From the NCBI GenBank assembly GCA_028715015.1, contig JAQTLF010000001.1, positions 29,243-93,242 of the forward strand: a stretch of 64,000 bases of DNA, given 5' to 3'. This DNA is from Candidatus Moraniibacteriota bacterium. GTDB taxonomy: Bacteria; Patescibacteriota; Minisyncoccia; Moranbacterales; GWC2-37-73. Below, piece by piece: positions 571 through 60,151 of this stretch (positions within the stretch are counted from its first letter, which is position 1; the number at the start of each line of letters is the position of its first letter). The position numbers and the translations under genes were made by a program. The notes under the pieces were generated by a model that worked only from the letters and a program-made list of their open reading frames with translations, made no database searches and was not told the DNA's origin.

Positions 571-644
571 AGATAGAAGTGAAAAGTAAAACTATTTCAA
601 AACTACAGTTGCACCAGCTTTTCCTTGTTTTTCCAAATTTTTAA

Positions 645-713: not shown

Positions 714-1112
714 TTATTTCAAAACTACAGTTGCACCAGCTTCTTCAAGTTTCTTTTGAACTTCTTCAGCTTGCGCTTTGGCAATCTTTTCTTTGATCAC
801 TTTTGGAGCTGCATCAACCAAGTCTTTTGCTTCCTTAAGTCCAAGACCGGTGATTTCACGAACAGCTTTAATAACATTGATTTTCTGTGCTCCAGCTGAA
901 GTCAATTCAACATCGAACTCAGATTTTTCTTCAGCAGCTTCAGCAGCAGCAGGTGCCACGCCCATCATCATTGGAGCAGCAGCAGACACACCGAATTTTT
1001 CTTCAAGAACTTTCACAAGTTCAGAAAGATCCAAAACACTCATCTTTTCGATTTCTGCAACAAGTTTTTCAAATTTTGCAGGCACGATAACCTCTTTTTT
1101 ATCCTCTGTCAT
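714..1112 (-). CDS. rplL: 50S ribosomal protein L7/L12
   Basis: 132 aa with the conserved L7/L12 architecture: N-terminal dimerisation region, Ala/Glu-rich hinge, and a C-terminal domain ([24 protein letters not shown]). Confidence 0.95.
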
Positions 1113-2489: not shown

Positions 2490-3335
2490 TTATTTCAATA
2501 ATTTATTGTTTTTATTTGATGCTAAAAAATTTTGTCCGGTCACCACACTTTTTCCGGTTTTTTCTTCAAGTGCAAGTCTGGCATCTTTGGCAATTTTCCC
2601 ACCTTTTTTGGCTGGAATTTTGTTTTCTTCCAAACCTTTTGATTCCATGGTTTCAGCAATCTGACGCGTGGAAAGTTCAGCCAGTGCTGTGAAAACCAAT
2701 TCTGCATCTGACATGTGATCACGCAAATTCTGCGTTTTGAGATTTTTCAAATCTTTGTGTTCTCTGACTGACAAATCACTCCATTCTTCATGAATGATGT
2801 TTGTCAAAATTGCAAACTCATCTTGCTCTTTAACTTCATTGTTTTTCCAATAATCAGTCAACTTGTTTCTGATTTCCTGCCCCATCATTCTTTGCTGAAT
2901 CCATTTTTCACTTCTTCCCATTTTTTGCCAATATCCCCTTGAGCGATTCACGCCCTTTTCCGGATCAGACATGTCCTGAATTCTTTCATATCCAACTTTT
3001 GCCAGCCATAATTTGATTGGTTCCGCTTTCCTAGATGGGACAGATTGAACAAGACGCAAAATTGTTTCCACGTCTGCCACATCAGTTAAATATTTTTTAC
3101 CATCAGCAGCTTCCAATTTCAGTTTGTCACATTTTGTGACAGACTCATTGCCTTCTTTTCTTAAACGATTTTTTAGTGTTGTCCAATAACTTTGCGCTTT
3201 TTTAAAATCTGCCTGATCTATTAAGGCAGCAACAATATCAATCACTGAAAAATACCAAGTCTCAGTTTTTTCGTCGTAGTGCCGACGAATTTTGAAATTC
3301 TCAAAAATTGCCAGCGAATCTTTTTTATTTTGCAT
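2490..3335 (-). CDS. DinD / Bro-N-domain (phage antirepressor-like, RhuM-like) protein
   Basis: 281 aa; N-terminal Bro-N-like region ([10 protein letters not shown]) and a DinD-like C-terminal region ([22 protein letters not shown]). Confidence 0.6.
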
Positions 3336-3374
3336 CTGATTTGTTTTTATTACTTATTGTCTAGCAAAGTGAGC

Positions 3375-3453
3375 GAAATGAAAATAAATTTTCATTTCCG
3401 AACAAGCGACGACAACAAGTGACTTTTTGTCACTTATAGTGATATTTTATCAC
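3375..3453. promoter_or_regulatory. three palindromic operator-like sites upstream of the DinD-like gene
   Basis: GAAATGAAAAT-aa-ATTTTCATTTC (3375-3398), AAGTGAC-ttttt-GTCACTT (3417-3435), GTGATA-ttt-TATCAC (3439-3453). Confidence 0.45.
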
Positions 3454-3489
3454 CATGTCAAAAAGCCGTCAACTTGGCTGCAAAATCGA

Positions 3490-9204: not shown

Positions 9205-9250
9205 TATTCATGGAGCATGGAGCATGGAGCATGGAGCATAAATCATGAAT
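9205..9250 (-). repeat. heptamer CATGGAG x4 tandem repeat abutting the smc start codon
   Basis: catggagcatggagcatggagcatggagca directly 5' of the smc ATG; it creates clustered upstream AUGs, including a mini-ORF ending in UAAUG that overlaps the start. Confidence 0.8.
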
Positions 9251-9367
9251 GTTGGTGACATCTATATTTGTGCCAGATGTTCCACATTATAAGATTTATG
9301 AATATTGTTCTATGTTCTATGTTTTATGTTCTATGACATTGTACTACACTTTTTTATTTTGGGAAAG

Positions 9368-9408
9368 AAAAAAGGCTACAAAGAAATATCTTGTAGCGCT
9401 TTTGGGTG
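9368..9408. terminator. bidirectional intrinsic terminator
   Basis: A-run, GGCTACAAagaaatatCTTGTAGC hairpin, T-run. Confidence 0.55.
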
Positions 9409-9644
9409 GTTTTGGTCTGGGTACATTCGGGATCGAATTGTGCTTTTTGTGAACAAAAATCCACCGAACGCACCCAGCTTTGAGGTTCGCAAAATTTCAT
9501 CGAACCAAAATAGATAAAAAGGGCTTGTGCAGAGGGTTGGGGATGTGTAATGATTTCGTAAGTTTACGCATTACAATATACCCCAATCCCTCTGACACCT
9601 TCATCATATACCCACAGTGATCATTGTCAAGCAAAAATACATAG

Positions 9645-9690
9645 AAAAAAGCCCCGAGCAGAACGCGTCTGTCGGGGCATTTGGTTTTTG
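9645..9690. terminator. bidirectional intrinsic terminator
   Basis: AAAAAA, GCCCCGAGCAGAACGCGTCTGTCGGGGC hairpin, TTTGGTTTTT; adjacent to a perfect 7-bp GC hairpin at 9696-9720. Confidence 0.6.
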
Positions 9691-10165
9691 GGCGACCCGC
9701 GGGGAACTTTCTCCCGCGGGCGCATTATTATAGCACATTTTTTTCAAAATTTTGCGGAGGCAGGGGATTTTCATCCGCTAGCCTTTCCGCGGTCAGATAT
9801 CAGTTATTGGATAGCATCCGCTTACGAAGTCCTCAGCCTCGTGCTGATGCATTCGCCGGCGACGGTTCTTGTCCCGCAGCAGGTTTCCATTTACCGGGCT
9901 GGCAATACAAGTTTGCCAGATTGGATTCAGGAACATCCAGGCGGGAAAGAGAAAATGAATTAGCATCATTCCTCCTCTTTGGCGAAAACAACTTCACTCT
10001 GAGGCGGCCCATTTTTTAGGGCGGCCGAGACCGGGGCGCTACTCGCGCTGGGTTATCCCAGGGATGTGGCCGGCGCCGGCAGGTCGGGCGATCAGGTCGT
10101 TCTTCTTGAAGTCGTCTATGTTTGTATCAAGGGTGTTACGGCTCCACGGCGGACTGTGATTCGAC
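9691..10165. ncRNA. GC-rich (~58% GC) non-coding island of unknown class; candidate structured RNA, strand unresolved
   Basis: ~475 bp with no credible ORF on either strand, embedded in a ~35% GC genome; many short GC helices; an intrinsic terminator is immediately adjacent at its low-coordinate end; the segment GGCGGACUGUGAUUCGACAUG resembles a tmRNA 5' end but no tRNA-like 3' domain was found. Confidence 0.3.
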
Positions 10166-10394
10166 ATGTTACACCTCCAGATTTAAAGTCACCATTCCAT
10201 TTTATTGGAAGGCGCTAACAGAAAAGTATTTACATTGTCTTTCAAAAAATTTCTTACAAAAATACCTTTCCCGTTAGTGCCTTCCAAACATATTGTCTTT
10301 TCCAAAGAGCTGTACACTATTTCAGTGTAAATTTGAGTATAGCGCACTTTTGCAATCCTGTCAAGGGTTAAAAGCTAAAATACCAATTTTTGGC

Positions 10395-10520
10395 TCAAAT
10401 AAAGTAAAATTTTAGCATAAATCTTAATATCAAAATCCAAATGTCAAATAAAATTCAAAAACCAAAATTTTTAAAAAGTATTTTAGAAATTGAGTCATTT
10501 ATTTAACATTTGTCATTGAG
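10395..10520. repeat. degenerate copy of the AT-rich inverted-repeat family (TTTGGATTTTGTCATTTGG motifs)
   Basis: shares the motifs aaaatccaaatgtcaaataaaat, gagtcatttatt and gtcattgagattttggattt with the repeats at 19606-19746 and 21381-21590. Confidence 0.5.
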
Positions 10521-10529
10521 ATTTTGGAT

Positions 10530-11522
10530 TTAGCGCATTATATACGCTGCCATTTCCACCAAGCGATTAGAATATCCCCACTCATTGTCATACCATCCCA
10601 CAATTTTGACTTGATTTCCCATGCTCATGGTCAAAGGCAGATCAACAATGGAAGAATGTGGATTCATTTTGTAGTCCATGGAAACCAGCTCTTTGGTGGT
10701 CGCATCCAAAATGCCATGCAGGCTTCCCTGAGACGCTTTGACAAAAGCCGCATTGATTTCTTCCACGCTTTTCGGAGTTTTCACTGACGCGATGAAATCA
10801 ACAATTGAAACAACCGGGGTTGGCACACGCAATGCGATTCCGTCCAGCTTGCCGTTGAGATGCGGCATCACCTTTCCCACTGTCTTGGCTGCACCTGTGG
10901 TGGTTGGAATGATTGAAAGAGCAGCAGCGCGAGCGCGACGCAAATCACGATGCGGCAAATCCAAAAGGTTTTGATCGTTGGTATATGAATGTGTGGTGGT
11001 CATGAACCCTTGCTCAACATCACAAAGATCATCCAAAACTTTGATCATCGGAGCCAAACAATTGGTAGTGCAAGATCCATTGGAAACAACCGCCTCGCCC
11101 TTGTACTCTTTTTCATTGACACCCAACAAATATACCGGCACGTCATCTTTTGGCGGCGCGGAAAGAACAACTTTTTTTGCTCCGGCAATGAGATGTTTTC
11201 CAGCCGAAACATTGTCCAAAAAAATTCCCGTGCAATCCAAAACAACATCCACCCCGAGTTTGGCCCAAGGCAAATTCGCAGGATCCTTTTCGGAAAAATA
11301 TTTCACCGGTTTTCCGTCAATGATGATCTCATTGTTTTCTTTGTCAACGACAACTTCCCTGCCATACACTCCATAGGAAGAATCGTATTTGAGCAGATGC
11401 GCACTTGTCTCGATATCAGTCAAATCATTGACCGCCACGATTTCCATCTCTTCTTTTTCAAAAACTATTTTCAGTGATGGTCTGCCAATGCGACCAAAAC
11501 CATTGATTGCAACTTTAAGCAT
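10530..11522 (-). CDS. gap: glyceraldehyde-3-phosphate dehydrogenase (start refined to MLKVAINGFGRIGR)
   Basis: NAD-binding GFGRIGR motif and catalytic SNGSCTTNCLAP motif. Confidence 0.95.
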   Translation of the reverse strand: MLKVAINGFGRIGRPSLKIVFEKEEMEIVAVNDLTDIETSAHLLKYDSSYGVYGREVVVDKENNEIIIDGKPVKYFSEKDPANLPWAKLGVDVVLDCTGIFLDNVSAGKHLIAGAKKVVLSAPPKDDVPVYLLGVNEKEYKGEAVVSNGSCTTNCLAPMIKVLDDLCDVEQGFMTTTHSYTNDQNLLDLPHRDLRRARAAALSIIPTTTGAAKTVGKVMPHLNGKLDGIALRVPTPVVSIVDFIASVKTPKSVEEINAAFVKASQGSLHGILDATTKELVSMDYKMNPHSSIVDLPLTMSMGNQVKIVGWYDNEWGYSNRLVEMAAYIMR

Positions 11523-11567
11523 GCATGTAGCATGTATCATGTAGCATGTATCATGTATAAATGCACT
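11523..11567 (-). repeat. heptamer CATGTAG/CATGTAT tandem repeat abutting the gap start codon
   Basis: catgtagcatgtatcatgtagcatgtatcatg, period 7. Confidence 0.8.
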
Positions 11568-11622
11568 TAATGCGCCATCCTATACATAATACTTGATACA
11601 AGAATACTTTATACTTAATTTA

Positions 11623-11898: not shown

Positions 11899-11945
11899 GA
11901 GTTCATGTAACATGTAGCATATAGCATGTAGCATTTGAGACACGA
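11899..11945 (-). repeat. heptamer CATGTAA/CATGTAG/CATATAG repeat abutting the hypA-like start
   Basis: catgtaacatgtagcatatagcatgtagca, period 7. Confidence 0.75.
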
Positions 11946-11994
11946 AGTTCCCATCCGCATTTTTGTTATATGTTATATGTTGTATGTTATATGA

Positions 11995-13257: not shown

Positions 13258-13292
13258 AATTTCATGTAGCATGCAACATGTATCATGTAACA
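13258..13292 (-). repeat. heptamer CATG repeat abutting the hydrogenase large-subunit start
   Basis: catgtagcatgcaacatgtatcatgtaac; creates a mini-ORF whose UGA overlaps the start (AUGA). Confidence 0.75.
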
Positions 13293-13337
13293 AGCACGGT
13301 TTTTTGAATTTTTGTTTTATGCTATATGTTATACGCT

Positions 13338-14129
13338 TTATGCAGCGTGGTCTTTTTCCCAATCTTCAACATCATCTTTTAATCCAAAAATTTCAGTCGT
13401 GTTTTCAAATTCGTCATCTGTCATCATTTGTTTCAAAGTCATTTTCATGGCTTTGACATTTCCTGTCGGACGGAGTCCTCGGCATCCTTGGCAGCCCATG
13501 CGCGCACTTGGGCACACAGCATCGCAACCTCCCAAAATCATCGGACCAAAACAAGGTTTTTTGTCCAACAACAAGCAGCGATTGCCTTTTTTCTTGCATT
13601 CCAAACAAACCGGACTGTCAGGAATTTCCGGAAGTTCGGTTCCCATCTTCACATTTGCCAGCAATATCGGAAAATATTTCAAAAATTCTTCTCCCGTGAT
13701 CGGACATCCAGGGAAAGTGAAATCAACTTTCACGAAATTGTCCACTTCCTGAATTTCCTCGTTTTCAATTCCTTGGATATATTTGTACACGTGCTTGATC
13801 GTCTGTTTTTGTTGTTGATAATTTTTGATCTCAGGAATTCCACCCATGGCTGCGCAGTTTCCAATCACCACCAAAAGCTTGCTTCTTCTGCGAAGTTCAA
13901 GCAAAGTTTTTTTATTGGCATCGGTGGCAGGATTTCCTTCCACAAAAGCGATGTCGATGCTTTCTCCGGCATCTTCTTCATCTTCCAAAAGCCTAAAATC
14001 AACCATTTCAACCTGACCCATCGCCTCCAGAAATCTTTCCCCCAAATCAAGCAAAGCAAACTGACAACCCTCACAGGAAGTCAAACTAACAATGGCAATT
14101 TTTGGTTTTTTTATTTCCAATTTTTCCAT
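13338..14129 (-). CDS. [NiFe]-hydrogenase small subunit (group 3 type, FeS-cluster protein)
   Basis: N-terminal IAIVSLTSCEGCQ proximal-cluster motif; C-terminal Cys clusters (CPITGEE; CLECKKKGNRC...CFGPMILGGCDAVCP). Confidence 0.85.
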   Translation of the reverse strand: MEKLEIKKPKIAIVSLTSCEGCQFALLDLGERFLEAMGQVEMVDFRLLEDEEDAGESIDIAFVEGNPATDANKKTLLELRRRSKLLVVIGNCAAMGGIPEIKNYQQQKQTIKHVYKYIQGIENEEIQEVDNFVKVDFTFPGCPITGEEFLKYFPILLANVKMGTELPEIPDSPVCLECKKKGNRCLLLDKKPCFGPMILGGCDAVCPSARMGCQGCRGLRPTGNVKAMKMTLKQMMTDDEFENTTEIFGLKDDVEDWEKDHAA

Positions 14130-16126: not shown

Positions 16127-16225
16127 AAAATTTTAAATTCTAAGTTATAAATTTTAAATCAATTTCAAATGATTCAATTTTAAATTTAGTAATTTTAATT
16201 TGATTTAAAATTAAAAATTTAAAAC

Positions 16226-16999
16226 TTAAAATTGATTTGCGTTTATTATTTCTGCGATTTTGATAAATTCATTGGGAATCAGACTCTCACGACCGACCAA
16301 GACTCCATCCATGCCTGCATCAGTGCAAACCTGTTTGGCACTGGCAGCTTTCACGCTTCCGCCATACAAAACTTTTATTTTTTCCGCCACGGTTATGCCA
16401 TAGGCATCAGCAAAGATTCTTTTCAGCAAAATCTTGACCTGCATGATTTCGTCACTTTTGGGAATCACATCGCTGCCGACAGCCCAAACCGGTTCATAGG
16501 CCACCACGATCGAAGCCGCCTTGGCTGATGAAATGTCAGCAAAACCCTCCACGATTTGTTCCGCAATCACCTGCGATTCATTTCCGGCTTCCCTGTCTTC
16601 TTTTGTTTCGCCAACGCAATAAATCGGAACCAAACCATTTTTCAAAGCATTTTTTATTTTTGCATTCGCATCAACATTTGTTTCGCTAAAATATTTTCTT
16701 CTTTCACTGTGACCCACGATCACATATTGCGCTCCCAAATTTTTCAACATCGCAGCTGAAATTTCCCCAGTGTAAGATCCCCTGTCTTCCCAAAAAATGT
16801 TTTGTCCGCCAATGGCGACATTCTTGGTTTTGTTTTTTTTGACAAAATTTTCCACATGCACTGCGGGCGGACAAAGCACGACATCCAGATCGGAAATCTT
16901 TGACTTTTTCAATTCTTTTTTGAAGGATTCAAGATATTGGTCACGTTCAGCAATCGTTAGCAGGTTCATTTTAAGATTGCCGATGATTATTTTTTGCAT
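16226..16999 (-). CDS. tpiA: triosephosphate isomerase
   Basis: IIGNLKMN, YVIVGHSERR and AYEPVWAVGS motifs. Confidence 0.95.
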   Translation of the reverse strand: MQKIIIGNLKMNLLTIAERDQYLESFKKELKKSKISDLDVVLCPPAVHVENFVKKNKTKNVAIGGQNIFWEDRGSYTGEISAAMLKNLGAQYVIVGHSERRKYFSETNVDANAKIKNALKNGLVPIYCVGETKEDREAGNESQVIAEQIVEGFADISSAKAASIVVAYEPVWAVGSDVIPKSDEIMQVKILLKRIFADAYGITVAEKIKVLYGGSVKAASAKQVCTDAGMDGVLVGRESLIPNEFIKIAEIINANQF

Positions 17000-18774: not shown

Positions 18775-19524
18775 CTATTTTTTGATGTTGTATTTTCCAG
18801 TGATCAAGCGCAATTTTGTTTTGAACAAATCTATCAGCACTTGGATGAATCCATTAGGGCCAGTAAGGCTTACTGTTGAACCTTCTTCATTGAGCCATCG
18901 CACGGGCATCTGTTTTATTTTGAATCCCAGAGCTTTTGCCAAAATTATAAGTTCAAAATCGAATCCGAATCTGTCAACAACCATTCTGCTGGCAACCGCA
19001 TGGGCAGCCTCGCCTGTCAACATTTTGAAACCGCATTGCGTGTCTGGAAAACTCCAGAGTCCCAGCACGATTCTGATGAGCCAATTTCCGCCTTCGCCCA
19101 TGAATTCACGATACTTTGGTTGATGCACTTGCACGAAAGCTCCTTGGATTTTTCTTGAACCCACGATGACGTCATTCCCAGCTTCCAACTCCGGCAAAAA
19201 TTTTTCCACATGAGTGATCGAAGTTGATCCATCAGCATCCAAAAAGACAACATATTTTCCTTTGGTCTCAAGCAATCCTTGACGCACCACATATCCTTTG
19301 CCGTGGTTGACCTCATTATTTATCACACGCAAATTTTTGATCTGCTTGGCATAATTGCCAGCAACCTCAGCGGTATTGTCAGGCGAACCATCCACGACAA
19401 TGATGACTTCGTATTCAAATTCCTTTGTTGATAAAAATTTTTCAATTTCCAACAAATTGCTTCCGATGCGTTCTTTTTCCTTATAGGCCGGGATAACCAC
19501 CGACAAGTATGGTGTCTGCTCCAT
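18775..19524 (-). CDS. family-2 glycosyltransferase (polyprenyl-phosphate sugar transferase, DPM1-like)
   Basis: VVIPAYKE...VDGSPDNT...LDADGS GT-A motifs. Confidence 0.85.
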   Translation of the reverse strand: MEQTPYLSVVIPAYKEKERIGSNLLEIEKFLSTKEFEYEVIIVVDGSPDNTAEVAGNYAKQIKNLRVINNEVNHGKGYVVRQGLLETKGKYVVFLDADGSTSITHVEKFLPELEAGNDVIVGSRKIQGAFVQVHQPKYREFMGEGGNWLIRIVLGLWSFPDTQCGFKMLTGEAAHAVASRMVVDRFGFDFELIILAKALGFKIKQMPVRWLNEEGSTVSLTGPNGFIQVLIDLFKTKLRLITGKYNIKK

Positions 19525-19605
19525 TGTTTTGATTTTATTCTATTGATTAAATTATCTTATCTAAAGTATAGCATATTATGGCAAAAAGACCACACTACGT
19601 CCAAA

Positions 19606-19746
19606 GATACAATGACCAAAAAATCTCAAATCTCAATTTCCAATGTCAAATAAAATCCAAAATCTCAAATCCTAAAAATTTTTTAGACATTTTGGCTTGA
19701 GTCATTTATTGGAAATTTGGATTTTGTCATTTGGATTTTAGTTTGA
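19606..19746. repeat. left arm of a long inverted repeat flanking the ruvX-map segment
   Basis: 19649-19746 is the exact reverse complement of 21381-21479; 19606-19648 matches RC(21547-21590) with one mismatch. Confidence 0.9.
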
Positions 19747-19770
19747 TGTTTGTTTCTTGTATCTTGTTGT

Positions 19771-20178
19771 TTAAAGAATTTGATTGTCCAGCCAGCTTTG
19801 CAAAATGATCCGGGCCGCTTCTTGATCATCAAGATTGGCGATGTTTGTGCCGCCTCGCATCTTGATGTTTTCCTGGGCCATCTTGGTCGTGAACATCTCT
19901 TCTTGGAATTCAATCCTGATTCCAGTTTCTTTTTCAAGCATTTTGGCAAAATCCAATTTCTCCTGGACGCTTTGCTGGTCTTTGTCGTGCTTGGTCATGC
20001 CAAGAACGATCGTTTTGACATTCTCACACGCAACAATTTCTTTTAAGTTACTGCGAAAGTCTTTGTCATTTTTGAGCGTATCAAAAGCAAAGGCCATTTT
20101 GGTCTCCTCATCAGCAATGGCCAATCCAATCTTGCTTTGACCATAATCTATACCCAAAATTGTGCTTATTTGAGCCAT
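19771..20178 (-). CDS. ruvX: Holliday-junction resolvase-like YqgF/RuvX (start refined to MAQISTILGIDYG)
   Basis: ILGIDYGQSKIGLA N-terminal motif and RNase H-like fold pattern. Confidence 0.8.
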   Translation of the reverse strand: MAQISTILGIDYGQSKIGLAIADEETKMAFAFDTLKNDKDFRSNLKEIVACENVKTIVLGMTKHDKDQQSVQEKLDFAKMLEKETGIRIEFQEEMFTTKMAQENIKMRGGTNIANLDDQEAARIILQSWLDNQIL

Positions 20179-20204
20179 ATTTTTCATTTTCATGCTTATT
20201 TTGC

Positions 20205-20233
20205 TTGACATTTTCATTATATCATGCTAATAT
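20205..20233 (+). promoter_or_regulatory. strong sigma70-type promoter
   Basis: TTGACA (20205-20210), 17-bp spacer, TAATAT (20228-20233). Confidence 0.6.
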
Positions 20234-20283
20234 TATTAAAACAAAAAGCAGTAAAAATCCAATAACAAGCGGAGGTAGCACCA

Positions 20284-20520
20284 ATGGAACCAATGGTTAT
20301 CCTAGGTCTCGTCATCGTTGTGTATGGTTTTTACATTTCTCATAAGGATGACGACTTGTTCTGCATCCGAATGCTTAAAAAAGTAATGCGATTCAATTCA
20401 CCCAAGGTGGAAAAGATTCTAGCAAAAGAATCCAAACCGCCTATTGGTAGAGTTGTGAAAAGCAGCGAGAGTATTTCCTACGTGCAGGTCGGACATCAAC
20501 AAGTACGACTATACCACTAA
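20284..20520 (+). CDS. small membrane-anchored protein (78 aa), stand-alone plus-strand transcription unit
   Basis: GGAGGT SD 8 nt upstream of the ATG; single N-terminal TM helix (MEPMVILGLVIVVYGFYI); own promoter and terminator. Confidence 0.6.
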   Translation: MEPMVILGLVIVVYGFYISHKDDDLFCIRMLKKVMRFNSPKVEKILAKESKPPIGRVVKSSESISYVQVGHQQVRLYH

Positions 20521-20544
20521 GAAGCTATGCGCTGCGTCATCAAT

Positions 20545-20586
20545 TGTGCACATTTCGTCAAAGACGATTTTGTGCACTTTTTTTAT
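20545..20586 (+). terminator. rho-independent terminator
   Basis: GTGCAC...TCGTCaaaGACGA...GTGCAC nested hairpin followed by T8. Confidence 0.65.
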
Positions 20587-21347
20587 TGTGTCAAAACTTC
20601 AACTCCATTTTTTGTTATCAAAATAGTATTTTCATAATGGGCGGAAAGTTTTCGGTCGGCTGTTAAAAACACCCAACCATCTGGTCCGATAGAATTGAGA
20701 TGTGTGCCGACATTCACCATGGGCTCCAATGCCAAAGTCATTCCTTCCTGCAAAACCAGATCCCTGAAACCTTTTTCAAAATAGTTGGGAACTTGCGGAT
20801 CTTCGTGAAGATTCCTGCCGATGCCATGACCGACCAAATTTTTCACCACTGAAAAACCAGCTGATTCGATTGTTTGCTGGGCAGCCTTGGAATAGTCGCT
20901 GAGTTTTGCTCCGGCTTTCAGATTCTTGATGCCTTTCCAAAATGATTTTTCTGTGATTTCAATCAGTTTTTGAGCTTCATTGCTGATTTTTCCCACAGCG
21001 AATGTGCGTGCCATGTCAGAATAGAATCCTTCGATTTCGATGCCCAAATCAACTTTGAAAATATCCCCTTCTTCCAAAATCCTGTCGTCACTGGGAATGC
21101 CATGCACGATTTCATCATTGATTGACGCGCAGATTGTGGCTGGAAACGGATTGCTGCGGTCTCCATATCCCTTGAAAGCTGGCGTGCCTCCAGAGCGCAA
21201 AATCAGCTCTTCAGCGAGCTTGTCGATCTGCATCGTGCTCACACCCGGACACACTTCGGCTTCAATTTCACGCATAACTTCAGCCAAAGCTTTGCCAGCC
21301 CGACGCATGATATTCAACTCAAATTCACTTTTTATATGTATAGACAT
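20583..21347 (-). CDS. map: methionine aminopeptidase, type I
   Basis: MetAP pita-bread fold with the conserved metal-ligand Asp/His/Glu pattern. Confidence 0.95.
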   Translation of the reverse strand: MSIHIKSEFELNIMRRAGKALAEVMREIEAEVCPGVSTMQIDKLAEELILRSGGTPAFKGYGDRSNPFPATICASINDEIVHGIPSDDRILEEGDIFKVDLGIEIEGFYSDMARTFAVGKISNEAQKLIEITEKSFWKGIKNLKAGAKLSDYSKAAQQTIESAGFSVVKNLVGHGIGRNLHEDPQVPNYFEKGFRDLVLQEGMTLALEPMVNVGTHLNSIGPDGWVFLTADRKLSAHYENTILITKNGVEVLTQ

Positions 21348-21380
21348 ATTTTATCAATAATAAAGATACAAGAAGCAAAT

Positions 21381-21590
21381 ATCAAACTAAAATCCAAATG
21401 ACAAAATCCAAATTTCCAATAAATGACTCAAGCCAAAATGTCTAAAAAATTTTTAGGATTTGAGATTTTGGATTTTATTATCAAACGTAGCGAGTGTAAT
21501 AAAAAATTTTTTATTACCGAGCAAGTGCAGATAATATGGTAACCCATATTTGACATTGGAAATTGGGATTTGAGATTTTTTGGTTATTGT
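21381..21590. repeat. right arm of the long inverted repeat (carries a 67-bp internal insertion at 21480-21546)
   Basis: reverse complement of 19606-19746; the insertion contains the perfect palindrome GTAATAAAAAATTTTTTATTAC. Confidence 0.9.
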
Positions 21591-21604
21591 TTTTTGTTTC
21601 CTGA

Positions 21605-22246
21605 TTATTCTAATTCACTAACTATATCTCCAAAAACTTCTTCCACTCCCCTGTTTCCATCAACTTCAATCAGCATTCCTTTGTGGCGATAATGTTCAAT
21701 GACTGGAATGGTGATTTCATAGAAAGTGTCCAATCTTTTTTTGATTCCGTCTGGCGTGTCATCATTTCTTTGCATGATCGGTCCTCCGCATGTCGGACAA
21801 GGCTCTTCAGTGTTGTGGATATGTTTGCCAAGAACGAAATGGCGATAACAAACAGTGCATGCATAACGTTTGGTGATGCGCCTGACTGATTCGTCATAAG
21901 GCAAAGTGATGTATATGGCCTTATCTATTGGACGATTCATTTCTTGGAGCATCTTCTCCACTGGAACAATCTGACCAGATGTGCGTGGTGCGCTGTCCAG
22001 CAAGACGCCCCTTTCCGGGGAAACTTTTTCCAAACGATCTTCAAGAACTTCCAAAGTGATGTCATCCGGAATCATTTCTTTTTGATCCAAAATTTCCTTA
22101 ACATTTCTTCCGAGATCAGATTCTTCCCTGGAAATTTCCCTGAAAATAAGACCGGTTTCAATATGCGCCAAGTTGTATTTTTCACAGAGCAAATCAGCTT
22201 GTGTTCCCTTCCCGCTTCCCTGCGGACCAAAGATAATAATATTCAT
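21605..22246 (-). CDS. adk: adenylate kinase (zinc-lid type)
   Basis: P-loop GPQGSGKGT; lid CxxC...CxxC (CTVCYRH...CPTCGG). Confidence 0.95.
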   Translation of the reverse strand: MNIIIFGPQGSGKGTQADLLCEKYNLAHIETGLIFREISREESDLGRNVKEILDQKEMIPDDITLEVLEDRLEKVSPERGVLLDSAPRTSGQIVPVEKMLQEMNRPIDKAIYITLPYDESVRRITKRYACTVCYRHFVLGKHIHNTEEPCPTCGGPIMQRNDDTPDGIKKRLDTFYEITIPVIEHYRHKGMLIEVDGNRGVEEVFGDIVSELE

Positions 22247-22300
22247 GTTTTAGCTTTTTAGGCTTTAGCTTCTTAGCTTCTTAGCTTCTTGAAAAACTCA
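22247..22300 (-). repeat. octamer AAGAAGCU x3-5 repeat abutting the adk start
   Basis: minus-strand sense caAGAAGCTAAGAAGCTAAGAAGCTAAAGCCTAAAAAGCTAAAAC-ATG. Confidence 0.75.
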
Positions 22301-22348
22301 TTCAAATTCCTGAAAAGCTAATTGCCTAAAAAGCTATGAAGCTGTTAA

Positions 22349-23620
22349 TTAGAATCCTTCGTAATCTCTCATGACAAGTTGTCCTTCGATTTGTTTGATT
22401 GTTTCAATCACAACTGAAACAACAATAAGAATACTGGTGCCGCCAATCTTGAGAGACTGGATGTTTGTCATCCCTTGAATGACAAATGGCAGCACAGCAA
22501 TGGTTCCCAAGAAAATTGATCCGGTAAGTGTGATCCTATTCATGATCTTGTACAAAAAGTCGGCAGTTGTTTTTCCGGGTCTTATCCCTGGAATGTAGCC
22601 TCCTTGTTTTTGAAGATTTTCCGCAATTTTGACAGGATCAAAAACGACTGCGGTATAGAAATATGTGAACATGACAATCAAAATAAAATACAGACTGCTG
22701 TAAAAAACTTGGTTTTGGAAAAGGGTGTTCACGAATGCGGCCGCATGCGCAACCGCAGGATTTGAGGCTTTCATGAGGAAAGTAGCAATCATTCCAGGAA
22801 AAAGCATGATTGACATAGCGAAAATAATTGGAATAACTCCAGCTTGGTTGACTCGCAACGGCAAATGCGTTGTTGAACCGCCATAAGTCTTGTCGCCCCT
22901 CACTCTCTTGGCATATGAAACCGGAATGTTTCTTTGTCCTTCAGTCACCAACACAACACCGGCAATAGTGATCAGTGTGACAGCCAAAAGCGCAATGTAT
23001 GTAAAAATCTGGGTTGAATCCAAAGTCAAAAGAAGTTTGGAAATTCCGGAAGGAAGTCCGCTGACAATACCGGCAAAAATGATCAGGGACACGCCATTGC
23101 CTATGCCTTTTTCTGTGATAAGCTCGCCCAACCACATCAAAAATATAGTTCCAGCTGTGGCTATGATCACAATAACTGCAATATCAAAAGGTGCCGAGAC
23201 TGACAAAACCCCTTGTGAACGCAACAAGGTGATCAAACTGAAAGTCTGCAGAACTGCCAATGGCACAGTGAGCCATCTTGTCCACATGTTGAATTTTTGT
23301 CTTCCAGCTTCACCTTCCTCTTTATAGAGCTGCTCCACTCGCGGCACGATCATGGTCAAAAGCTGCATGATGATTGATGCGGTGATATATGGTCCGACGC
23401 CCAACATGACAATCGAAATGTTCGTCAATCCTCCGCCAGAAAAAACATTCAACATGCCCAAAAATTGATTGCCCTCAAAAAGACGTCTCAATTGTTCGAT
23501 ATTCACACCTGGAACCGGCACATTGGCAGCAATCCTGAAAACAACAAGAATCCCCAAAATGAAGAGGATCTTGTTGCGCAGTTCTGGTATTTTGAAGATT
23601 TGTGTTATTTTTTCAAGCAT
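22349..23620 (-). CDS. secY: preprotein translocase subunit SecY
   Basis: 423 aa, 10-TM SecY topology, in the conserved position after rplO. Confidence 0.95.
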   Translation of the reverse strand: MLEKITQIFKIPELRNKILFILGILVVFRIAANVPVPGVNIEQLRRLFEGNQFLGMLNVFSGGGLTNISIVMLGVGPYITASIIMQLLTMIVPRVEQLYKEEGEAGRQKFNMWTRWLTVPLAVLQTFSLITLLRSQGVLSVSAPFDIAVIVIIATAGTIFLMWLGELITEKGIGNGVSLIIFAGIVSGLPSGISKLLLTLDSTQIFTYIALLAVTLITIAGVVLVTEGQRNIPVSYAKRVRGDKTYGGSTTHLPLRVNQAGVIPIIFAMSIMLFPGMIATFLMKASNPAVAHAAAFVNTLFQNQVFYSSLYFILIVMFTYFYTAVVFDPVKIAENLQKQGGYIPGIRPGKTTADFLYKIMNRITLTGSIFLGTIAVLPFVIQGMTNIQSLKIGGTSILIVVSVVIETIKQIEGQLVMRDYEGF

Positions 23621-23624
23621 TTCA

Positions 23625-23720
23625 AATAGCTTCTCAGCTTCTTAGCCTTTCAGCTTCTTAGCTTTAAAGATAGCATTAGTTTTTTTAATTTCCTAAGAAG
23701 CTAACAAGCTAATGCCTCAG
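23625..23720 (-). repeat. octamer/nonamer GCTAAGAAG-type repeats upstream of secY
   Basis: sense ...AAGCTAAGAAGCTGAAAGGCTAAGAAGCTGAGAAGCTATTTGAA-ATG. Confidence 0.7.
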
Positions 23721-23723
23721 AAG

Positions 23724-27276: not shown

Positions 27277-27582
27277 TTATAATTCTTTACCACATTTCTT
27301 ACAAAGTCTGACTTTTTTGTCACCAACCTTGGAATATGATACGCGAGTTGCTTTGGCACACGCCGGGCAAATGATCATAGCATTTGAAGCATCAAACGGG
27401 GCAGCGATTTCCACGCGTTGTCCGCGTTGTCCTTCTCTGCGAGCCTTTTGGTGTTTCTTCACAATATTCATTTTTTCCACCACTATCTTTCCCTCGCTAG
27501 GCACAGTTCTAAGAACCTTTCCTTGCTTACCTTTATCTTTGCCTGCTATTTTTTTTACGAGGTCTCCTTTTTTAATTCTCAT
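27277..27582 (-). CDS. rplX: 50S ribosomal protein L24
   Basis: KOW motif (MRIKKGDLVKKIAGKDKGKQGKV). Confidence 0.95.
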   Translation of the reverse strand: MRIKKGDLVKKIAGKDKGKQGKVLRTVPSEGKIVVEKMNIVKKHQKARREGQRGQRVEIAAPFDASNAMIICPACAKATRVSYSKVGDKKVRLCKKCGKEL

Positions 27583-27682
27583 ATATTTTAGTCAAAAGTC
27601 TTTCAAGTCTTTCAAGTCTTTCAAGCCAATGCATTTCTGCTTTATGGACTTTATGGACTTTCGACTTTATGGACTGCAATTA
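27583..27682 (-). repeat. ~95-bp composite repeat element, copy A (AAGTCTTTC x3 + aatgcatttctgc + TTTATGGAC x3)
   Basis: fills the rplN-rplX intergenic spacer; nearly identical to copies at 28049-28149 and 30483-30585. Confidence 0.9.
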
Positions 27683-28048
27683 TTATAATACTTCAGGTGC
27701 CAATGATACGATTTTTGCAAATCCCTTCTCTCTAAGCTCTCTGGCAATCGGTCCGAAAATTCGAGTTCCCTTTGGCTCCTTGTCATTCAAAACCACAGCA
27801 GCATTCTCATCAAAACGGATATAAGAACCGTCTTTGCGACGAATAGCTTTTTTTGTTCTAACCACAACTGCGCGAATCTTATCACCTTTCTTTACCAATC
27901 CTCGCGGTTCAGCTGATTTTACTGAGCAAACAATAATATCACCAACAGAAGCATAGCGTCTGCGAGATCCACCGAGAACTTTGAAGCACTCAATGATTTT
28001 TGCGCCTGAATTATCGGCTGCTCTTAACTTTGTTTCTGCTTGAATCAT
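27683..28048 (-). CDS. rplN: 50S ribosomal protein L14
   Basis: [18 protein letters not shown]-terminus. Confidence 0.95.
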
Positions 28049-28149
28049 ATATTTTAGTCAAAAGTCTATCAAGTCTATCAAGTCTATCAAGCTAATGCAT
28101 TTCTGCTTTATGGACTTTATGGACTTTCGACTTTATGGACTGCTATTAT
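28049..28149 (-). repeat. ~95-bp composite repeat element, copy B (AAGTCTATC x3 variant)
   Basis: the same substitution is present in all three tandem units of this copy (concerted variant). Confidence 0.9.
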
Positions 28150-28392
28150 TTATGCTATTACTGTGTGACTTTTGTCTTTGCTGATAGGTCGGCATTGGAT
28201 AAATTCAACCTTGTCACCTTTCTTGAATTTATTTTCCGCATCATGAACCTTGTATTTCTTGGTTGAGCGGTATTTTTTCAAATATTTCGGATGAGTTTTC
28301 AATGATTCAACGGCCACAACGATTGTTTTGTCCATCTTATCACTAACAACAACACCTTTCTTCTTTGCTAAATTTTTGATTATGTTTGCCAT
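28150..28392 (-). CDS. rpsQ: 30S ribosomal protein S17
   Basis: S17 OB-fold family sequence; operon position. Confidence 0.95.
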   Translation of the reverse strand: MANIIKNLAKKKGVVVSDKMDKTIVVAVESLKTHPKYLKKYRSTKKYKVHDAENKFKKGDKVEFIQCRPISKDKSHTVIA

Positions 28393-28616: not shown

Positions 28617-28716
28617 AGGAGTATCGTTTTTTCAACTAAATTATTATCGAGCGTAACGGGTGAAATGATTCGCCAGCAGGTGAACATTTCCGAGTGAGCG
28701 ACGATATCAAAAATCT

Positions 28717-29130
28717 TTATTTTTCCTTAACCACAAACTTCGTTTTAACATTAAGCTTATGTGAGGCCAAGCGCATTGCTTCTTTGGCAATTGCTTCAGT
28801 GATGCCATCCATTTCAAACAAAACTCTTCCTTGCTTGGTCTTTGCCACGAAATGGTCAACACTTCCTTTTCCTTTACCCATAGGTGTTTCATCACCTTTT
28901 TTGGTCATAGGTTTGTCAGGAAAAATTCTGATCCAAATCTTACCACCACGCTTGACATATCTTGTCATTGCGCGACGTGCAGCTTCAATCTGACGAGCAG
29001 AAATAAGTCCGGATGTCATGGCTTTCAAACCATAGGTTCCAAAACTAACCGTATTGCCCTTAGTTGCAACTCCACGGATCTCTCCGCCTCGGTGAATCTT
29101 TCTGTGTTTAACTTTTTTCGGCATCAACAT
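28717..29130 (-). CDS. rplP: 50S ribosomal protein L16
   Basis: [16 protein letters not shown]-terminus. Confidence 0.95.
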
Positions 29131-29912: not shown

Positions 29913-30482
29913 CTATGCTCCTGATTTTCTTTGGAAAACTTTTTTCAAAAATCCACTGTCTTGACCCTTCTTTATTGTCTCTTTTTTTGCAGCCACTTTT
30001 TTGACAGATGTTTTTTCAGAAACTATTTCTTCTTCTTTTTCCTCTTTTTCGAATTCAGCCAAATGTTCCTTCATCATTTTTTCACGAGCAGCTTCCCTGT
30101 CAGCTCTTTCTTTTTCCAATTCTTTCTTTGATTTCCTGTTTTTTCCTTCAACTTTTTCTTCGAGTTCCAATTTGATATGAGAAGTTCTTTTCAAAATCAA
30201 TGTTGCACGTCCTTGTGCTCTTGGAAGCCATCTTTTCAGTTTAGCTCCTTCACCCACCAAAATGCTGCTCACGAACAAATTGTCCGCATCCAAACCGAAA
30301 TTGTTTTCAGCATTAGCAATGGCGCTTTTTAATAATTTTTCAAGTGGCTCGCTTGTTTTCTTCACAACATGCTGAAGTTGCACAAGAGCGGCACTGGCAT
30401 TCATCCCAACAATACTGTCTGTTACCAAACGGACTTTTCGTGGAGATGTTCTTAAATTGTTGAGTGATGCTATAACTTTCAT
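29913..30482 (-). CDS. rplV: 50S ribosomal protein L22 with a ~75-aa K/E-rich C-terminal extension
   Basis: L22 core followed by a low-complexity tail EEKVEGKNRKSKKELEKERADREAAREKMMKE... Confidence 0.9.
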   Translation of the reverse strand: MKVIASLNNLRTSPRKVRLVTDSIVGMNASAALVQLQHVVKKTSEPLEKLLKSAIANAENNFGLDADNLFVSSILVGEGAKLKRWLPRAQGRATLILKRTSHIKLELEEKVEGKNRKSKKELEKERADREAAREKMMKEHLAEFEKEEKEEEIVSEKTSVKKVAAKKETIKKGQDSGFLKKVFQRKSGA

Positions 30483-30585
30483 AAATGTTAGTCAAAAGTC
30501 TTTCAAGTCTTTCAAGTCTTTCAAGTCAATGCATTTCTGCTTTATAGACCTTATGAACTTTATAACTTTATGGACTGGATATTAC
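30483..30585 (-). repeat. ~95-bp composite repeat element, copy C (more diverged 3' half)
   Basis: AAGTCTTTC x3 + aatgcatttctgc + TTTATAGAC/TTATGAACT/TTTATGGAC. Confidence 0.85.
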
Positions 30586-30927
30586 TTATTTTTTCTTTGC
30601 CGGGGTATCATTTTTTGCAGCCTTCATAGCATCTTGCTGCTTTTGTTTTGCAGCTTGTTCCATTTCTTTCTGCATCTTACCTCCATGTCTGTTGAATTTG
30701 CGAGTTGGAGCAAATTCTCCAAATCTGTGTCCAACCATTTCTTCAGTTACATACACAGCGGTGTGCTCTCTTCCATTGTGAACTCCGAATGTAAAACCGA
30801 TCATTTCAGGTGCGATTGTGCAAGCTCTGGACCAAGTCTTGATTGTTCCTTCGCCAGGCTTAGCATTGATAACTTTTTTCATCACACGTGGGTCCACATA
30901 CAACCCTTTCTTTAAACTTCTTGACAT
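30586..30927 (-). CDS. rpsS: 30S ribosomal protein S19 with a basic C-terminal extension
   Basis: [13 protein letters not shown]-terminus; [13 protein letters not shown] core. Confidence 0.95.
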
Positions 30928-31814: not shown

Positions 31815-31898
31815 AATATTTTTTAGGTTTTAGCTTTTTAGCCTTTAGCTTTTCAGGAAAAACCTGAGAAGCTTAGAAGCTAATGCCTGAACAGCTAT
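31815..31898 (-). repeat. octamer AAAAAGCU-type repeats abutting the rplB start
   Basis: sense GAAAAGCTAAAGGCTAAAAAGCTAAAACCTAAAAAATATT-ATG. Confidence 0.7.
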
Positions 31899-45338: not shown

Positions 45339-45508
45339 TATATGGTTTCAAATATTAACTTTTGTTTTTTGCTTTGCCTGTTTTCTTTTGAGGCCATCCG
45401 CAGCGAGAGCAAGGACGAGCGAGCAATCATAGTTCTTCGATTGCGAAGCGTGCCGAAAAAGGAAATAGGCAAAGCAAAAAAAGTCAGAGAAAACTATATA
45501 TTGCGCAT
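45332..45508. mobile_element. MITE-like element copy 1 (~177 bp, imperfect 15-17-bp TIRs, GC-richer core)
   Basis: about 90% identical, in inverse orientation, to 59965-60144; the TIR resembles TGCACAATATATGG ... CTATATATTGCGCA. Confidence 0.75.
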
Positions 45509-45583
45509 TAACCCAATAATGCTGTTTTATAAGTTGTCACTGAAGAATCAAATCTGAGAAATGATTCTTCAGTGACACAAGTT

Positions 45584-59948: not shown

Positions 59949-59964
59949 TTGAAATTTATTGGTT

Positions 59965-60144: not shown

Positions 60145-60151
60145 AGCCAAA

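What the first reader, a model, noticed from the sequence alone, without database searches (positions are those of the whole stretch)
19606..21590. The ruvX - small ORF - map segment is bracketed by ~140-bp near-perfect inverted repeats
19649-19746 is the exact reverse complement of 21381-21479, and the match continues with one mismatch to 19606 and 21590, interrupted on the right by a 67-bp insertion carrying a perfect 22-bp palindrome. A degenerate third copy lies at 10395-10520. The repeats are AT-rich (TTTGGATTTTGTCATTTGG motifs, embedded TTGACA). The canonical secY-adk-map-infA order is broken exactly here, where map is followed by ruvX and the GT2 gene. Possible explanations are a foldback or MITE pair that mediated a rearrangement, an invertible segment, or a duplicated bidirectional promoter/terminator module.
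Basis: seen in the sequence. Interest (0 to 1): 0.58.

Follow-up and report, generated by a model that had tools for sequence, protein, structure and literature searches.

The report
Foldback spacer repeats flanking map–ruvX
The inverted repeats are real, but they are two copies of a small hairpin-forming repeat that comes and goes in the gaps between genes of these uncultured Moranbacteria. They are not the scar of a gene rearrangement, and nothing suggests a genetic switch.

Summary
19649-19765 pairs with 21363-21479 (117 nt, 98%), and 19604-19652 pairs with 21547-21595 (49 nt, 92%). The right copy is split by 67 bp that carry a perfect 22-bp palindrome. A third, diverged copy lies at about 10402-10535.

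The window comes from a Candidatus Moranbacteria MAG. The order secY-adk-map-ruvX-GT2-GalT is the same in every relative fetched, down to 59% Map identity, and most of those lack this repeat pair. The "broken" gene order is therefore ancestral.

Each repeat arm is a whole ~162-bp self-complementary element ("family A") that fills one intergenic spacer. Family A copies sit in different spacers in different relatives, in either orientation. The orthologous sites are empty in other relatives: adk-map is only 13 bp in L095.

The 67-bp "insertion" is 63 bp plus a 4-bp AATA duplication. It belongs to a second dispersed stem-loop module: 11 copies, 98% Watson-Crick paired, 19 compensatory changes and no G:U pairs.

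No recombinase or transposase was found in the window. Best reading: recently duplicated or gene-converted copies of a MITE/ERIC-like foldback repeat, one with a nested module. Function is inferred, not shown.

The parts
19600..19767 (.). Left copy (L): short form of the family A foldback element. It fills the ruvX-GT2 spacer between the ruvX stop (19771) and the conserved GT2 promoter. Its termini are CCAAAGATACAA...TTGTATCTTG.
   Evidence: nhmmer E=5e-43
21363..21479 (.). Right copy (R), b-arm: 117 nt, 98% reverse-complementary to 19649-19765. It ends 15 nt upstream of the map start codon.
21477..21549 (-). The 22-bp palindrome 21496-21517 is its apical stem.
   Evidence: (76 bits, E=5e-18)
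21547..21600 (.). Right copy (R), a-arm: 49 nt, 92% reverse-complementary to 19604-19652. Its outer ~11 nt are degenerate. It starts about 10 nt after the adk stop.
10402..10535 (.). Third, diverged family A copy (short form), directly after the GAPDH stop codon.
   Evidence: E=2e-23
3356..3430 (-). Stand-alone copy of the core stem-loop module, in the 5' leader of ORF 2490-3335, downstream of a TTGACA-17-TATAAG promoter (3433-3461, minus strand).
   Evidence: (93 bits)
28643..28722 (-). Stand-alone copy of the core module between rplP (L16) and rpmC (L29). The same position is occupied in relative L095.
20583..21347 (-). map (type I methionine aminopeptidase), inside the bracketed segment.
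20284..20520 (+). orf78, a small predicted membrane protein on the opposite strand. It has its own promoter (TTGACA-17-TAATAT, 20205-20233), a GGAGG ribosome-binding site, and a hairpin plus T-run (20546-20588). Its only homologue is an 84-aa ORF at the same place in L008.
19771..20217 (-). ruvX (YqgF). The true start is probably the ATG at 20178.
19565..19583 (-). Extended -10 promoter candidates for GT2 (TGCCATAAT / TGCTATACT), conserved as TGTGNTATAAT in relatives. They lie between L and the GT2 start.

Best explanation
L (19600-19767) and R (21363-21600) are two copies of a non-coding, self-complementary ~162-bp repeat, here called family A. It is a MITE/ERIC-like foldback element that lives in intergenic spacers of a Moranbacteria clade. 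R is the long form: it carries a nested copy of a second, independently dispersed 63-75-nt stem-loop module. L is the short form without that module. The two copies lie in opposite orientation in two neighbouring spacers, so together they look like inverted repeats bracketing map-orf78-ruvX.

Their 98% identity reflects a recent copy event or a gene-conversion patch between two spacers. It does not reflect a rearrangement, because the gene order is ancestral for the clade.

Shown: the family exists; its copies occupy different spacers in different genomes, in either orientation; orthologous sites can be empty; both families keep their hairpins through compensatory changes.

Inferred: (i) copies spread by transposition in trans or by recombination among hairpin spacers. 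(ii) Because R ends only 15 nt before the map start codon and begins about 10 nt after the adk stop, it is co-transcribed. It would form a long AT-rich intercistronic RNA hairpin that could affect mRNA processing or stability, as reported for ERIC and Correia elements. (iii) The pair could occasionally support RecA-mediated inversion, but inverted products would uncouple essential map from its operon and be selected against.
For: 1. Each arm is a complete foldback filling a spacer (MFE z from -2.1 to -3.6).
2. Family membership by nhmmer: window 19603-19765, 21363-21482 and 10402-10535; L004 ruvX-GT2, L18-S5 and secY-adk spacers; L012 adk-map; L091 GT2-GalT.
3. Filled versus empty sites. L091 carries an 85%-identical copy (135 nt) in the GT2-GalT spacer, where the window has 45 bp without an element. 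The ruvX-GT2 spacer is empty in L001 (58 bp), L091 (90 bp) and L095 (78 bp, promoter only). adk-map is 13 bp in L095.
4. Both orientations occur relative to transcription: window R and L004 one way, window L, L012 and L091 the other.
5. The 85% identity between element copies is at least as high as that of flanking essential genes (69-81% DNA identity), whereas other orthologous spacers are unalignable.
6. Synteny is conserved in every relative whose contig covers the genes.
7. The 63-bp module is a separate family: 11 copies, 98.4% paired, 9 of 18 pairs with double changes, 0 of 500 shuffles as good.
8. Other foldback families in the same window also occupy neighbouring spacers, at 27573/28045/30473, 45319/59956 and 22247/23621/31815.
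9. Of 68 spacers in the clade, 53-60% have MFE z below -2, against 0 of 41 coding controls.
10. No recombinase or transposase was found in the window.
Against: No convincing target-site duplication at L, R or the L091 copy; only AT-rich short repeats that could be chance. No parent insertion sequence or transposase with matching ends was found, and the rest of the source genome could not be searched. Mismatches between L and R are concentrated in R's outer 11 nt (3 of 11 against 3 of 154, Fisher p=0.004). That fits patchy gene conversion between older resident copies better than a clean transposition. Only three family A copies are seen in 64 kb, so genome-wide copy number is unknown. The mechanism of spread and any RNA-level effect are inference; no expression data were available.
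Confidence: 0.72

Rival explanations
1. The hairpins are selected, functional intercistronic signals (RNA processing or stability sites, weak terminators or insulators) that every spacer needs. L and R resemble each other only because neighbouring functional spacers are homogenised by gene conversion, not because the element is mobile or selfish.
For: Hairpin-forming potential is widespread in orthologous spacers even when the sequences are unrelated. Elements start within 0-20 nt of stop codons, and R and the L091 copy leave no room for a promoter before the next gene, so they must be transcribed. The core module is positionally conserved at L16-L29 and L5-S14 even in the compact genome L095. 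The mismatch heterogeneity between L and R fits a conversion tract.
Against: The same spacers are short and hairpin-free in L095 (adk-map 13 bp) and in L014. The window's own GT2-GalT spacer (45 bp) has no hairpin, so the hairpins are dispensable. Family A occurs in both orientations, and antisense strands fold at least as well as sense strands (median z -2.7 against -2.0). Family copies sit at non-orthologous sites in different genomes.
Confidence: 0.2
2. The 1.6-kb map-orf78-ruvX segment is an invertible (phase-variable) segment, with L and R as the recombination sites.
For: About 154 bp of 98%-identical inverted repeat 1.6 kb apart is a possible substrate for homologous inversion.
Against: No invertase or recombinase Pfam hit in the 64-kb window. 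The segment carries essential map in operon orientation, and all relatives have the same orientation. The repeats are whole copies of a dispersed family that also occurs singly. Known invertible switches use short repeats around a promoter; this last point rests on general knowledge.
Confidence: 0.03
3. The repeats are the scar of, or the agent for, the rearrangement that put ruvX and GT2 after map in place of infA-rpmJ.
Against: The map-ruvX-GT2-GalT order holds in every relative whose contig reaches those genes, down to 59% Map identity, including L014 where map and ruvX are 11 bp apart with no repeats. Most relatives lack family A at one or both spacers.
Confidence: 0.01
4. The near-identity of the two spacers is an assembly artefact of the MAG.
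For: The source is a metagenome-assembled genome held only at NCBI. The reads could not be examined, and repeats of about 100 exact bases can confuse short-read assemblers.
Against: The resulting gene order and orientation match all relatives. The two copies differ in structured ways: a nested module in one, a different terminus in the other, and 6 substitutions. Independent assemblies of relatives show the same kind of element at the same spacers.
Confidence: 0.03

Closest known systems
ERIC / IRU elements of Enterobacteriaceae (about 127-bp imperfect palindromes, classed as MITEs)
   Same: Similar size; an imperfect palindrome along the whole length; located in intergenic regions near gene 3' ends where it is co-transcribed (PMC3184786).
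   Different: No sequence relationship: no Rfam hit and no plasmid or phage hits. The phylum is different (CPR/Patescibacteria). The arms here are built of 7-8-nt AT-rich periodic units. The TA flanks and target duplications reported for ERIC-type elements were not seen.
Correia elements (NEMIS/CREE) of Neisseria; RUP and BOX elements of Streptococcus pneumoniae
   Same: Non-autonomous intergenic repeats of 100-160 bp with inverted termini, co-transcribed with neighbouring genes. Their mobility was shown by differing locations in related strains (PMC3184786). From recollection: BOX elements are modular, like family A plus the core module here.
   Different: Those families have defined terminal inverted repeats, TA duplication and hundreds of copies. 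Here only the ends AAGATACAA/TTGTATCTT are defined, no duplication is evident, and the copy number is unknown.
REP / BIME / REPIN elements with RAYT transposases
   Same: Extragenic hairpins, often paired in inverted orientation (REPINs), mosaic arrangements (BIMEs), and effects on mRNA stability (PMC3184786; PMC3116915 listed).
   Different: REPs are short (20-40 nt), G+C-rich and tied to a RAYT gene. Family A is about 162 bp and 26% G+C, and no Y1/HUH transposase was found in the window.
Site-specific invertible DNA segments (Hin/Gin-type or tyrosine-recombinase switches)
   Same: A segment bracketed by inverted repeats.
   Different: No recombinase nearby. The repeats are long copies of a dispersed family. 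The enclosed genes are housekeeping genes in operon orientation. There is no evidence of a second orientation.

Membership tests
MITE (miniature inverted-repeat transposable element) | Small (about 50-500 bp) and non-coding | tested here: met
   162 bp (L) and about 233 bp (R). The only ORFs of 40 aa or more that overlap the elements are 40-88 aa, with no support as genes.
MITE (miniature inverted-repeat transposable element) | Terminal inverted repeats | tested here: met
   The whole element is a foldback. The termini AAGATACAA / TTGTATCTT are shared by L and the L012 copy, but are degenerate at one end of R.
MITE (miniature inverted-repeat transposable element) | Several copies per genome at unrelated sites | tested here: met
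   3 copies in the 64-kb window. At least 3 copies in 12.7 kb of GW2011_GWD2_38_11 (L004). Genome-wide numbers could not be obtained.
MITE (miniature inverted-repeat transposable element) | Presence/absence polymorphism at orthologous sites (evidence of mobility) | tested here: met
   GT2-GalT is filled in L091 and empty in the window. ruvX-GT2 is filled in the window and L004, and empty in L001, L091 and L095. adk-map is 13 bp in L095.
MITE (miniature inverted-repeat transposable element) | Target-site duplication flanking each copy | tested here: inconclusive
   No consistent duplication at L, R, L012 or L091. Only short AT-rich repeats, such as ATATAAA at L091 and AATA around the nested module, which may be chance or microhomology.
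MITE (miniature inverted-repeat transposable element) | A parent insertion sequence or transposase with matching ends in the genome or clade | not testable with these tools
   No transposase Pfam hit in the window. The rest of the source genome is not in the searchable collections.
REP/REPIN-RAYT system | Short G+C-rich hairpins associated with a RAYT (Y1 transposase) gene | tested here: not met
   The elements are 162-233 bp in spacers of 26% G+C. No Y1_Tnp hit among the window ORFs.
Site-specific invertible switch | A dedicated recombinase gene next to the inverted repeats | tested here: not met
   No recombinase, invertase or integrase domain in any window ORF of 90 aa or more.
Site-specific invertible switch | Both orientations present in the population | not testable with these tools
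   No reads available, and the source population is absent from the other collections. All relatives show one orientation.
Intrinsic (Rho-independent) terminator | G+C-rich stem followed by a U-tract | tested here: not met
   The consensus scan finds no terminator-like site in L or R. The only convincing one in the region is the hairpin plus T-run after orf78, 20546-20588.
Known RNA families (Rfam 15) | Match at the gathering score | tested here: not met
   0 hits in the window at the gathering score. Only a chance-level hit (E=2.6) in 19500-21700.
TIGR arrays (TIGR-Tas systems, reported in CPR bacteria) | A long tandem array of dual-spacer units next to a Nop-domain tas gene | tested here: not met
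   The hairpins are single, lie between housekeeping genes, and no Nop-domain gene is present in the window. The array definition is taken from PMC12045711.

The most novel reading that the evidence does not exclude
The repeat pair may be one visible piece of a clade-wide, undescribed system. In this Moranbacteria subclade most intergenic spacers, including those inside the S10/spc ribosomal-protein operons, are occupied by interchangeable, modular foldback cassettes. These are families built of 7-9-nt periodic units, plus a conserved stem-loop module that pairs only by Watson-Crick pairs. The cassettes are gained, lost, nested and copied between neighbouring spacers. The strict Watson-Crick covariation with no G:U pairs, the independence from orientation, and element sequences that are better conserved than the flanking essential genes would fit DNA-level hairpins recognised by a dedicated but unidentified enzyme (a hairpin-specific transposase or nuclease). 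They would also fit a CPR-specific way of punctuating operons.
Probability: 0.15. Interest if true: 0.6.

Novelty: new member of a known kind. Interest (0 to 1): 0.3.

Why it matters
For the finding itself, a suggestive inverted-repeat bracket around essential genes turns out to be ordinary repeat biology. There is no rearrangement scar, and nothing points to a switch.

The context has some value. Small mobile foldback repeats do not appear to have been described for CPR/Patescibacteria: four literature searches found nothing, and a 2024 survey of MITEs in 183,232 genomes does not mention the group. These roughly 1-Mb genomes are usually regarded as streamlined. Here, repeats of 100-250 bp sit even inside ribosomal-protein operons in some lineages, while close relatives such as L095 keep spacers of 13-60 bp.

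The elements could serve as strain markers. They could cause mis-assembly in MAGs. They offer a handle on mRNA processing or DNA-hairpin enzymology in organisms that cannot be cultured.

Tried and rejected
1. The exact 31-mer of the repeat found nothing in genome contigs. The 25-nt core pattern hit only GW2011_GWD2_38_11. The source genome is not in that collection, so no genome-wide census was possible.
2. The look-up of encoding contigs for the window's own Map and LytR proteins found nothing on record, so the source contig could not be extended.
3. I looked for RNA-level selection by counting G:T against A:C mismatches in spacer hairpins. The counts were too few (4 against 8). Comparing folding energies between strands gave mixed results: within the window the sense strand folded better in 18 of 25 spacers (p=0.04), but across the clade the antisense strand is at least as stable. 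I treat this as inconclusive.
4. Viral contigs, the phage collection and the plasmid collection gave no match to family A or to the core module.
5. Rfam gave nothing at the gathering score or at relaxed thresholds.
6. TIGR arrays, known from CPR bacteria, were considered and rejected.
7. orf78 was searched against 5.8 billion proteins with no homologue found. Its only relative is an ORF at the same place in L008.
8. I tried to derive the window's orientation pattern from that of L012 and L004 by one or two inversions. Inversions cannot swap the pattern. In-place flips, direct-register conversion or independent insertions are needed, so the exact history is left open.
9. The embedded TTGACA motifs were checked as promoters. 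They are not supported by the scan, apart from a hybrid TTGATA-17-TATTAT site at the map-proximal end of R.
Full report
**1. Observation**

The inverted repeat is real and far beyond chance.
- The repeat finder reports arms 19649-19765 / 21363-21479 (117 nt, 98%) and 19604-19652 / 21547-21595 (49 nt, 92%).
- A 49-mer from the repeat occurs exactly twice in the window, against 0.00 expected in 100 shuffles.
- The right copy (R) holds 67 extra bases (21480-21546), including the perfect 22-bp palindrome at 21496-21517.
- Base-by-base, this is a 63-bp insert flanked by a duplicated AATA.
- The outer arm has four mismatches, three of them in its last 11 nt.
- A third copy at about 10402-10535 is ~73% identical and aligns in both orientations.

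**2. Genes and source**

All genes around the repeats lie on the minus strand:
- secY 22349-23620, adk 21605-22246, map 20583-21347
- ruvX 19771-20217 (likely true start at 20178)
- a GT2 glycosyltransferase 18775-19524
- then a GalT-like gene, a VTT-domain protein, TIM, FBA, hyp genes, a NiFe hydrogenase and GAPDH

Between map and ruvX, on the plus strand, lies a 78-codon ORF. It has a strong promoter (TTGACA-17-TAATAT), a GGAGG ribosome-binding site and a hairpin plus T-run.

The Map protein is 100% identical to one from a Candidatus Moranbacteria MAG held only at NCBI. The source genome is not in the other searchable collections.

**3. The gene order is ancestral**

Loci around Map homologues of 59-83% identity were fetched from JGI, ENA, NCBI and Logan assemblies. 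Every locus long enough to cover the genes carries secY-adk-map-(variable gap, usually with a small antisense ORF)-ruvX-GT2-GalT in the same orientation.
- In the most distant relative (L014), map and ruvX are 11 bp apart and no repeats are present.
- Most relatives lack family A at one or both of the two spacers.
- The departure from map-infA therefore predates the repeats and is unrelated to them.

**4. What each repeat arm is**

L (19600-19767) is a self-complementary element of about 162 bp. It begins 5 nt after the ruvX stop and ends before the conserved extended -10 promoter of GT2 (TGTGNTATAAT in relatives).

R is the same element in the opposite orientation. It begins about 10 nt after the adk stop and ends 15 nt before the map start, and it has the 63-bp insert in one arm.

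Because each element is a near-palindrome, any two copies register as both direct and inverted repeats. The orientation is fixed only by the asymmetric interior.

**5. A dispersed family with filled and empty sites**

An HMM built from the arms finds family A at these places:

| Genome | Spacer(s) holding family A | Notes |
|---|---|---|
| Window | ruvX-GT2, adk-map, after GAPDH | L, R and the third copy |
| GW2011_GWD2_38_11 (L004/L009/L090) | ruvX-GT2, L18-S5, secY-adk | ruvX-GT2 copy has the insert; 80% identical to R over 193 nt |
| L012 | adk-map | has the insert, opposite orientation to R, plus a further nested G+C-rich ~75-bp insertion |
| L091 | GT2-GalT | short form, 85% identical to L over 135 nt |

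The window's own GT2-GalT spacer is 45 bp with no element. The ruvX-GT2 spacer is empty in L001, L091 and L095. The adk-map spacer is 13 bp in L095.

Flanking essential genes are only 69-81% identical at the DNA level between these genomes, and other orthologous spacers cannot be aligned. A family that stays 80-85% identical while changing location is therefore either constrained, or recently moved, or both.

This is the behaviour of a MITE-like repeat. Two defining MITE features remain unmet or untested: no convincing target-site duplication, and no parent transposase (none in the window).

**6. The "67-bp insertion" is a second element**

The insert aligns with stand-alone copies elsewhere:
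- in the window at 3356-3430 (the 5' leader of ORF 2490-3335)
- in the window at 28643-28722 (between L16 and L29)
- in relatives at L5-S14 (L001, L011, L095), L16-L29 (L095), FBA-hypC (L001) and S3-L16 (L094, reverse orientation)

The consensus is an interrupted stem-loop of 18 pairs.
- Across 11 copies, 98.4% of cells pair.
- 9 pairs show changes on both sides, in 19 cells.
- No pair varies on one side only, so there are no G:U pairs.
- 0 of 500 shuffles reach these values, and slid registers collapse to about 40% paired. The 11-copy alignment was fitted to the model, which leans towards the structure; the 8-copy MAFFT alignment gave the same picture.

It differs in sequence from the other copies but still pairs.

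Nine of the 11 copies are in the sense orientation. Counted as independent positions this is 6 against 2, which is not significant.

There is no Rfam match.

**7. Relation between L and R**

Excluding the insert, 151 of 154 interior positions are identical, but 3 of the 11 terminal positions of R's outer end differ (Fisher p=0.004).

L keeps the terminus also seen in L012 (CCAAAGAYACAAT). R keeps the nested module also seen in L004 and L012. Each copy therefore retains a different ancestral feature, so neither is simply derived from the other's present form.

Two histories fit: a duplication followed by loss of the module in L and erosion of R's end, or a conversion patch between two older resident copies.

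The orientation pattern in the window is the reverse of that in L012 (adk-map) and L004 (ruvX-GT2). Inversions of the segment cannot produce this reversal. It needs in-place flips, conversion in the direct register, or independent insertions. I leave the history open.

**8. Context: a genome full of foldback spacers**

Other repeat families in the same window also occupy neighbouring spacers:
- three direct copies around rplN and after rplV (27573-27686, 28045-28153, 30473-30589; 86-95%)
- an inverted pair at 45319-45519 / 59956-60156 (89%, 204 bp)
- "AAGCTAAG" hairpins on both sides of secY and at 31815-31898

In relative L007, adk and ruvX are each bracketed by related hairpins.

Across 68 spacers in the window and eight relatives, 53% (sense strand) and 60% (antisense strand) fold with z below -2, against 0 of 41 coding controls. 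The arms are typically tandem 7-9-nt units.

The same spacer holds unrelated hairpins in different species. L095 and L014 have short, largely unstructured spacers. So the hairpins are common but dispensable, and bracketing of a gene by related repeats is a by-product of copies landing in neighbouring spacers.

**9. How it most likely works**

Shown: the family, its polymorphic occupancy of spacers, its foldback conservation (23 consensus pairs, 9 with compensatory changes), and its nested modular build.

Inferred:
- Spread is by trans-acting transposition or by recombination among hairpin spacers.
- R, and probably L, is co-transcribed and forms a long AT-rich stem-loop in the mRNA. For ERIC and Correia elements such hairpins change mRNA processing and stability (PMC3184786).

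Neither L nor R looks like an intrinsic terminator. A hybrid promoter-like site (TTGATA-17-TATTAT, 21385-21357, minus strand) spans R's end and the flank before map, and is untested.

The lack of any strand preference, and the absence of G:U pairs in the core module, leave DNA-level hairpins as a live alternative.

**10. Comparison with known systems and verdict**

The closest analogues are ERIC/IRU, Correia, RUP/BOX and REP/BIME elements. There is no sequence relationship to any of them, and no hits in phage, plasmid or viral collections. TIGR arrays, which occur in CPR bacteria, do not fit. I found no paper describing such repeats in CPR bacteria.

Verdict:
- The rearrangement reading is rejected.
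- The switch reading has no support, though without reads it cannot be formally excluded.
- The foldback/MITE reading is supported, with open points on mechanism.

The pair is a new member of a known kind of element in an unusual host. Interest is modest for the pair itself, and somewhat higher for the clade-wide pattern.

Noticed in passing
window 22247-22348, 23621-23723, 31815-31898; L015 904-970; L094 11929-12125: A separate hairpin family built of AAGCTAAG / CTTAGCTT units sits on both sides of secY and between rplB and rplW in the window. It also appears in other spacers in relatives: adk-map in L015 and ruvX-GT2 in L094.
   Followed up: partly
window 27573-27686, 28045-28153, 30473-30589: Three direct copies (86-95% identical) of a ~110-bp element whose arms are 9-nt tandem units (AGTCTTTCA / CTTTATGGA). 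They flank rplN on both sides and follow rplV, inside the S10/spc ribosomal-protein operon.
   Followed up: partly
window 45319-45519 and 59956-60156: A second inverted-repeat pair (204 bp, 89%) of a G+C-richer foldback element with TATATA-like ends, 14 kb apart. One copy lies after the MFS transporter gene, the other after the DEAD-box helicase gene.
   Followed up: no
window 3356-3430 and 28643-28722 (minus strand); relatives L001, L011, L094, L095: The conserved stem-loop module (covariance model R1) has purely Watson-Crick covariation and no Rfam match. It is positionally conserved at L16-L29 and L5-S14 even in a relative with compact spacers, so it may be an undescribed structured element in its own right.
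   Followed up: partly
window 20284-20520 (+), with promoter 20205-20233 and hairpin plus T-run 20546-20588: An orphan 78-aa predicted membrane protein is encoded antisense between map and ruvX. Most relatives carry a different small ORF with hydrophobic stretches on the antisense strand in the same gap (58-126 aa), and only the L008 one is detectably homologous. The gap ranges from 11 bp (L014) to about 970 bp (L013).
   Followed up: partly
window 9205-10529: A 1.3-kb stretch without a confident gene that folds very stably (-447 kcal/mol on the plus strand). It contains heptamer-repeat hairpins (CATGGAG x4 pairing with GTTCTAT x4 through G:T pairs on the plus strand only). Only chance-level Rfam hits to hairpin precursors.
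   Followed up: partly
window 11510-11568, 11904-11993, 13263-13342: Related heptamer-repeat sequences (CATGTAG / GTTATAT units) lie in the spacers around hypA and the NiFe hydrogenase large-subunit gene. This is another family shared by neighbouring spacers.
   Followed up: no
window 16129-16233: The FBA-TIM spacer is 9% G+C and forms a hairpin with 52-nt arms (81% complementary) and a 1-nt loop.
   Followed up: no
window 590-623 and 711-746: The last ~36 nt of rplL (714-1112, minus strand) are duplicated 120 bp downstream (94% identical). The duplicates flank an ~87-bp insert that carries a G+C-rich hairpin plus T-run. It looks like an insertion into the gene's 3' end that regenerated the reading-frame end.
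   Followed up: partly
L012 3950-4030: The family A copy in L012 carries a further nested G+C-rich insertion of about 75 bp (CCTCAAGGCTTGCCTCGTGAGCCCGCAGGC...) next to the core module, so elements are nested three deep.
   Followed up: no
L095 (whole locus) compared with the window: A relative with 77% Map identity has spacers of mostly 13-60 bp through the same 20-kb syntenic block, whereas the window and several other relatives have 80-260 bp. Spacer inflation by foldback repeats is therefore lineage-specific within the clade.
   Followed up: partly
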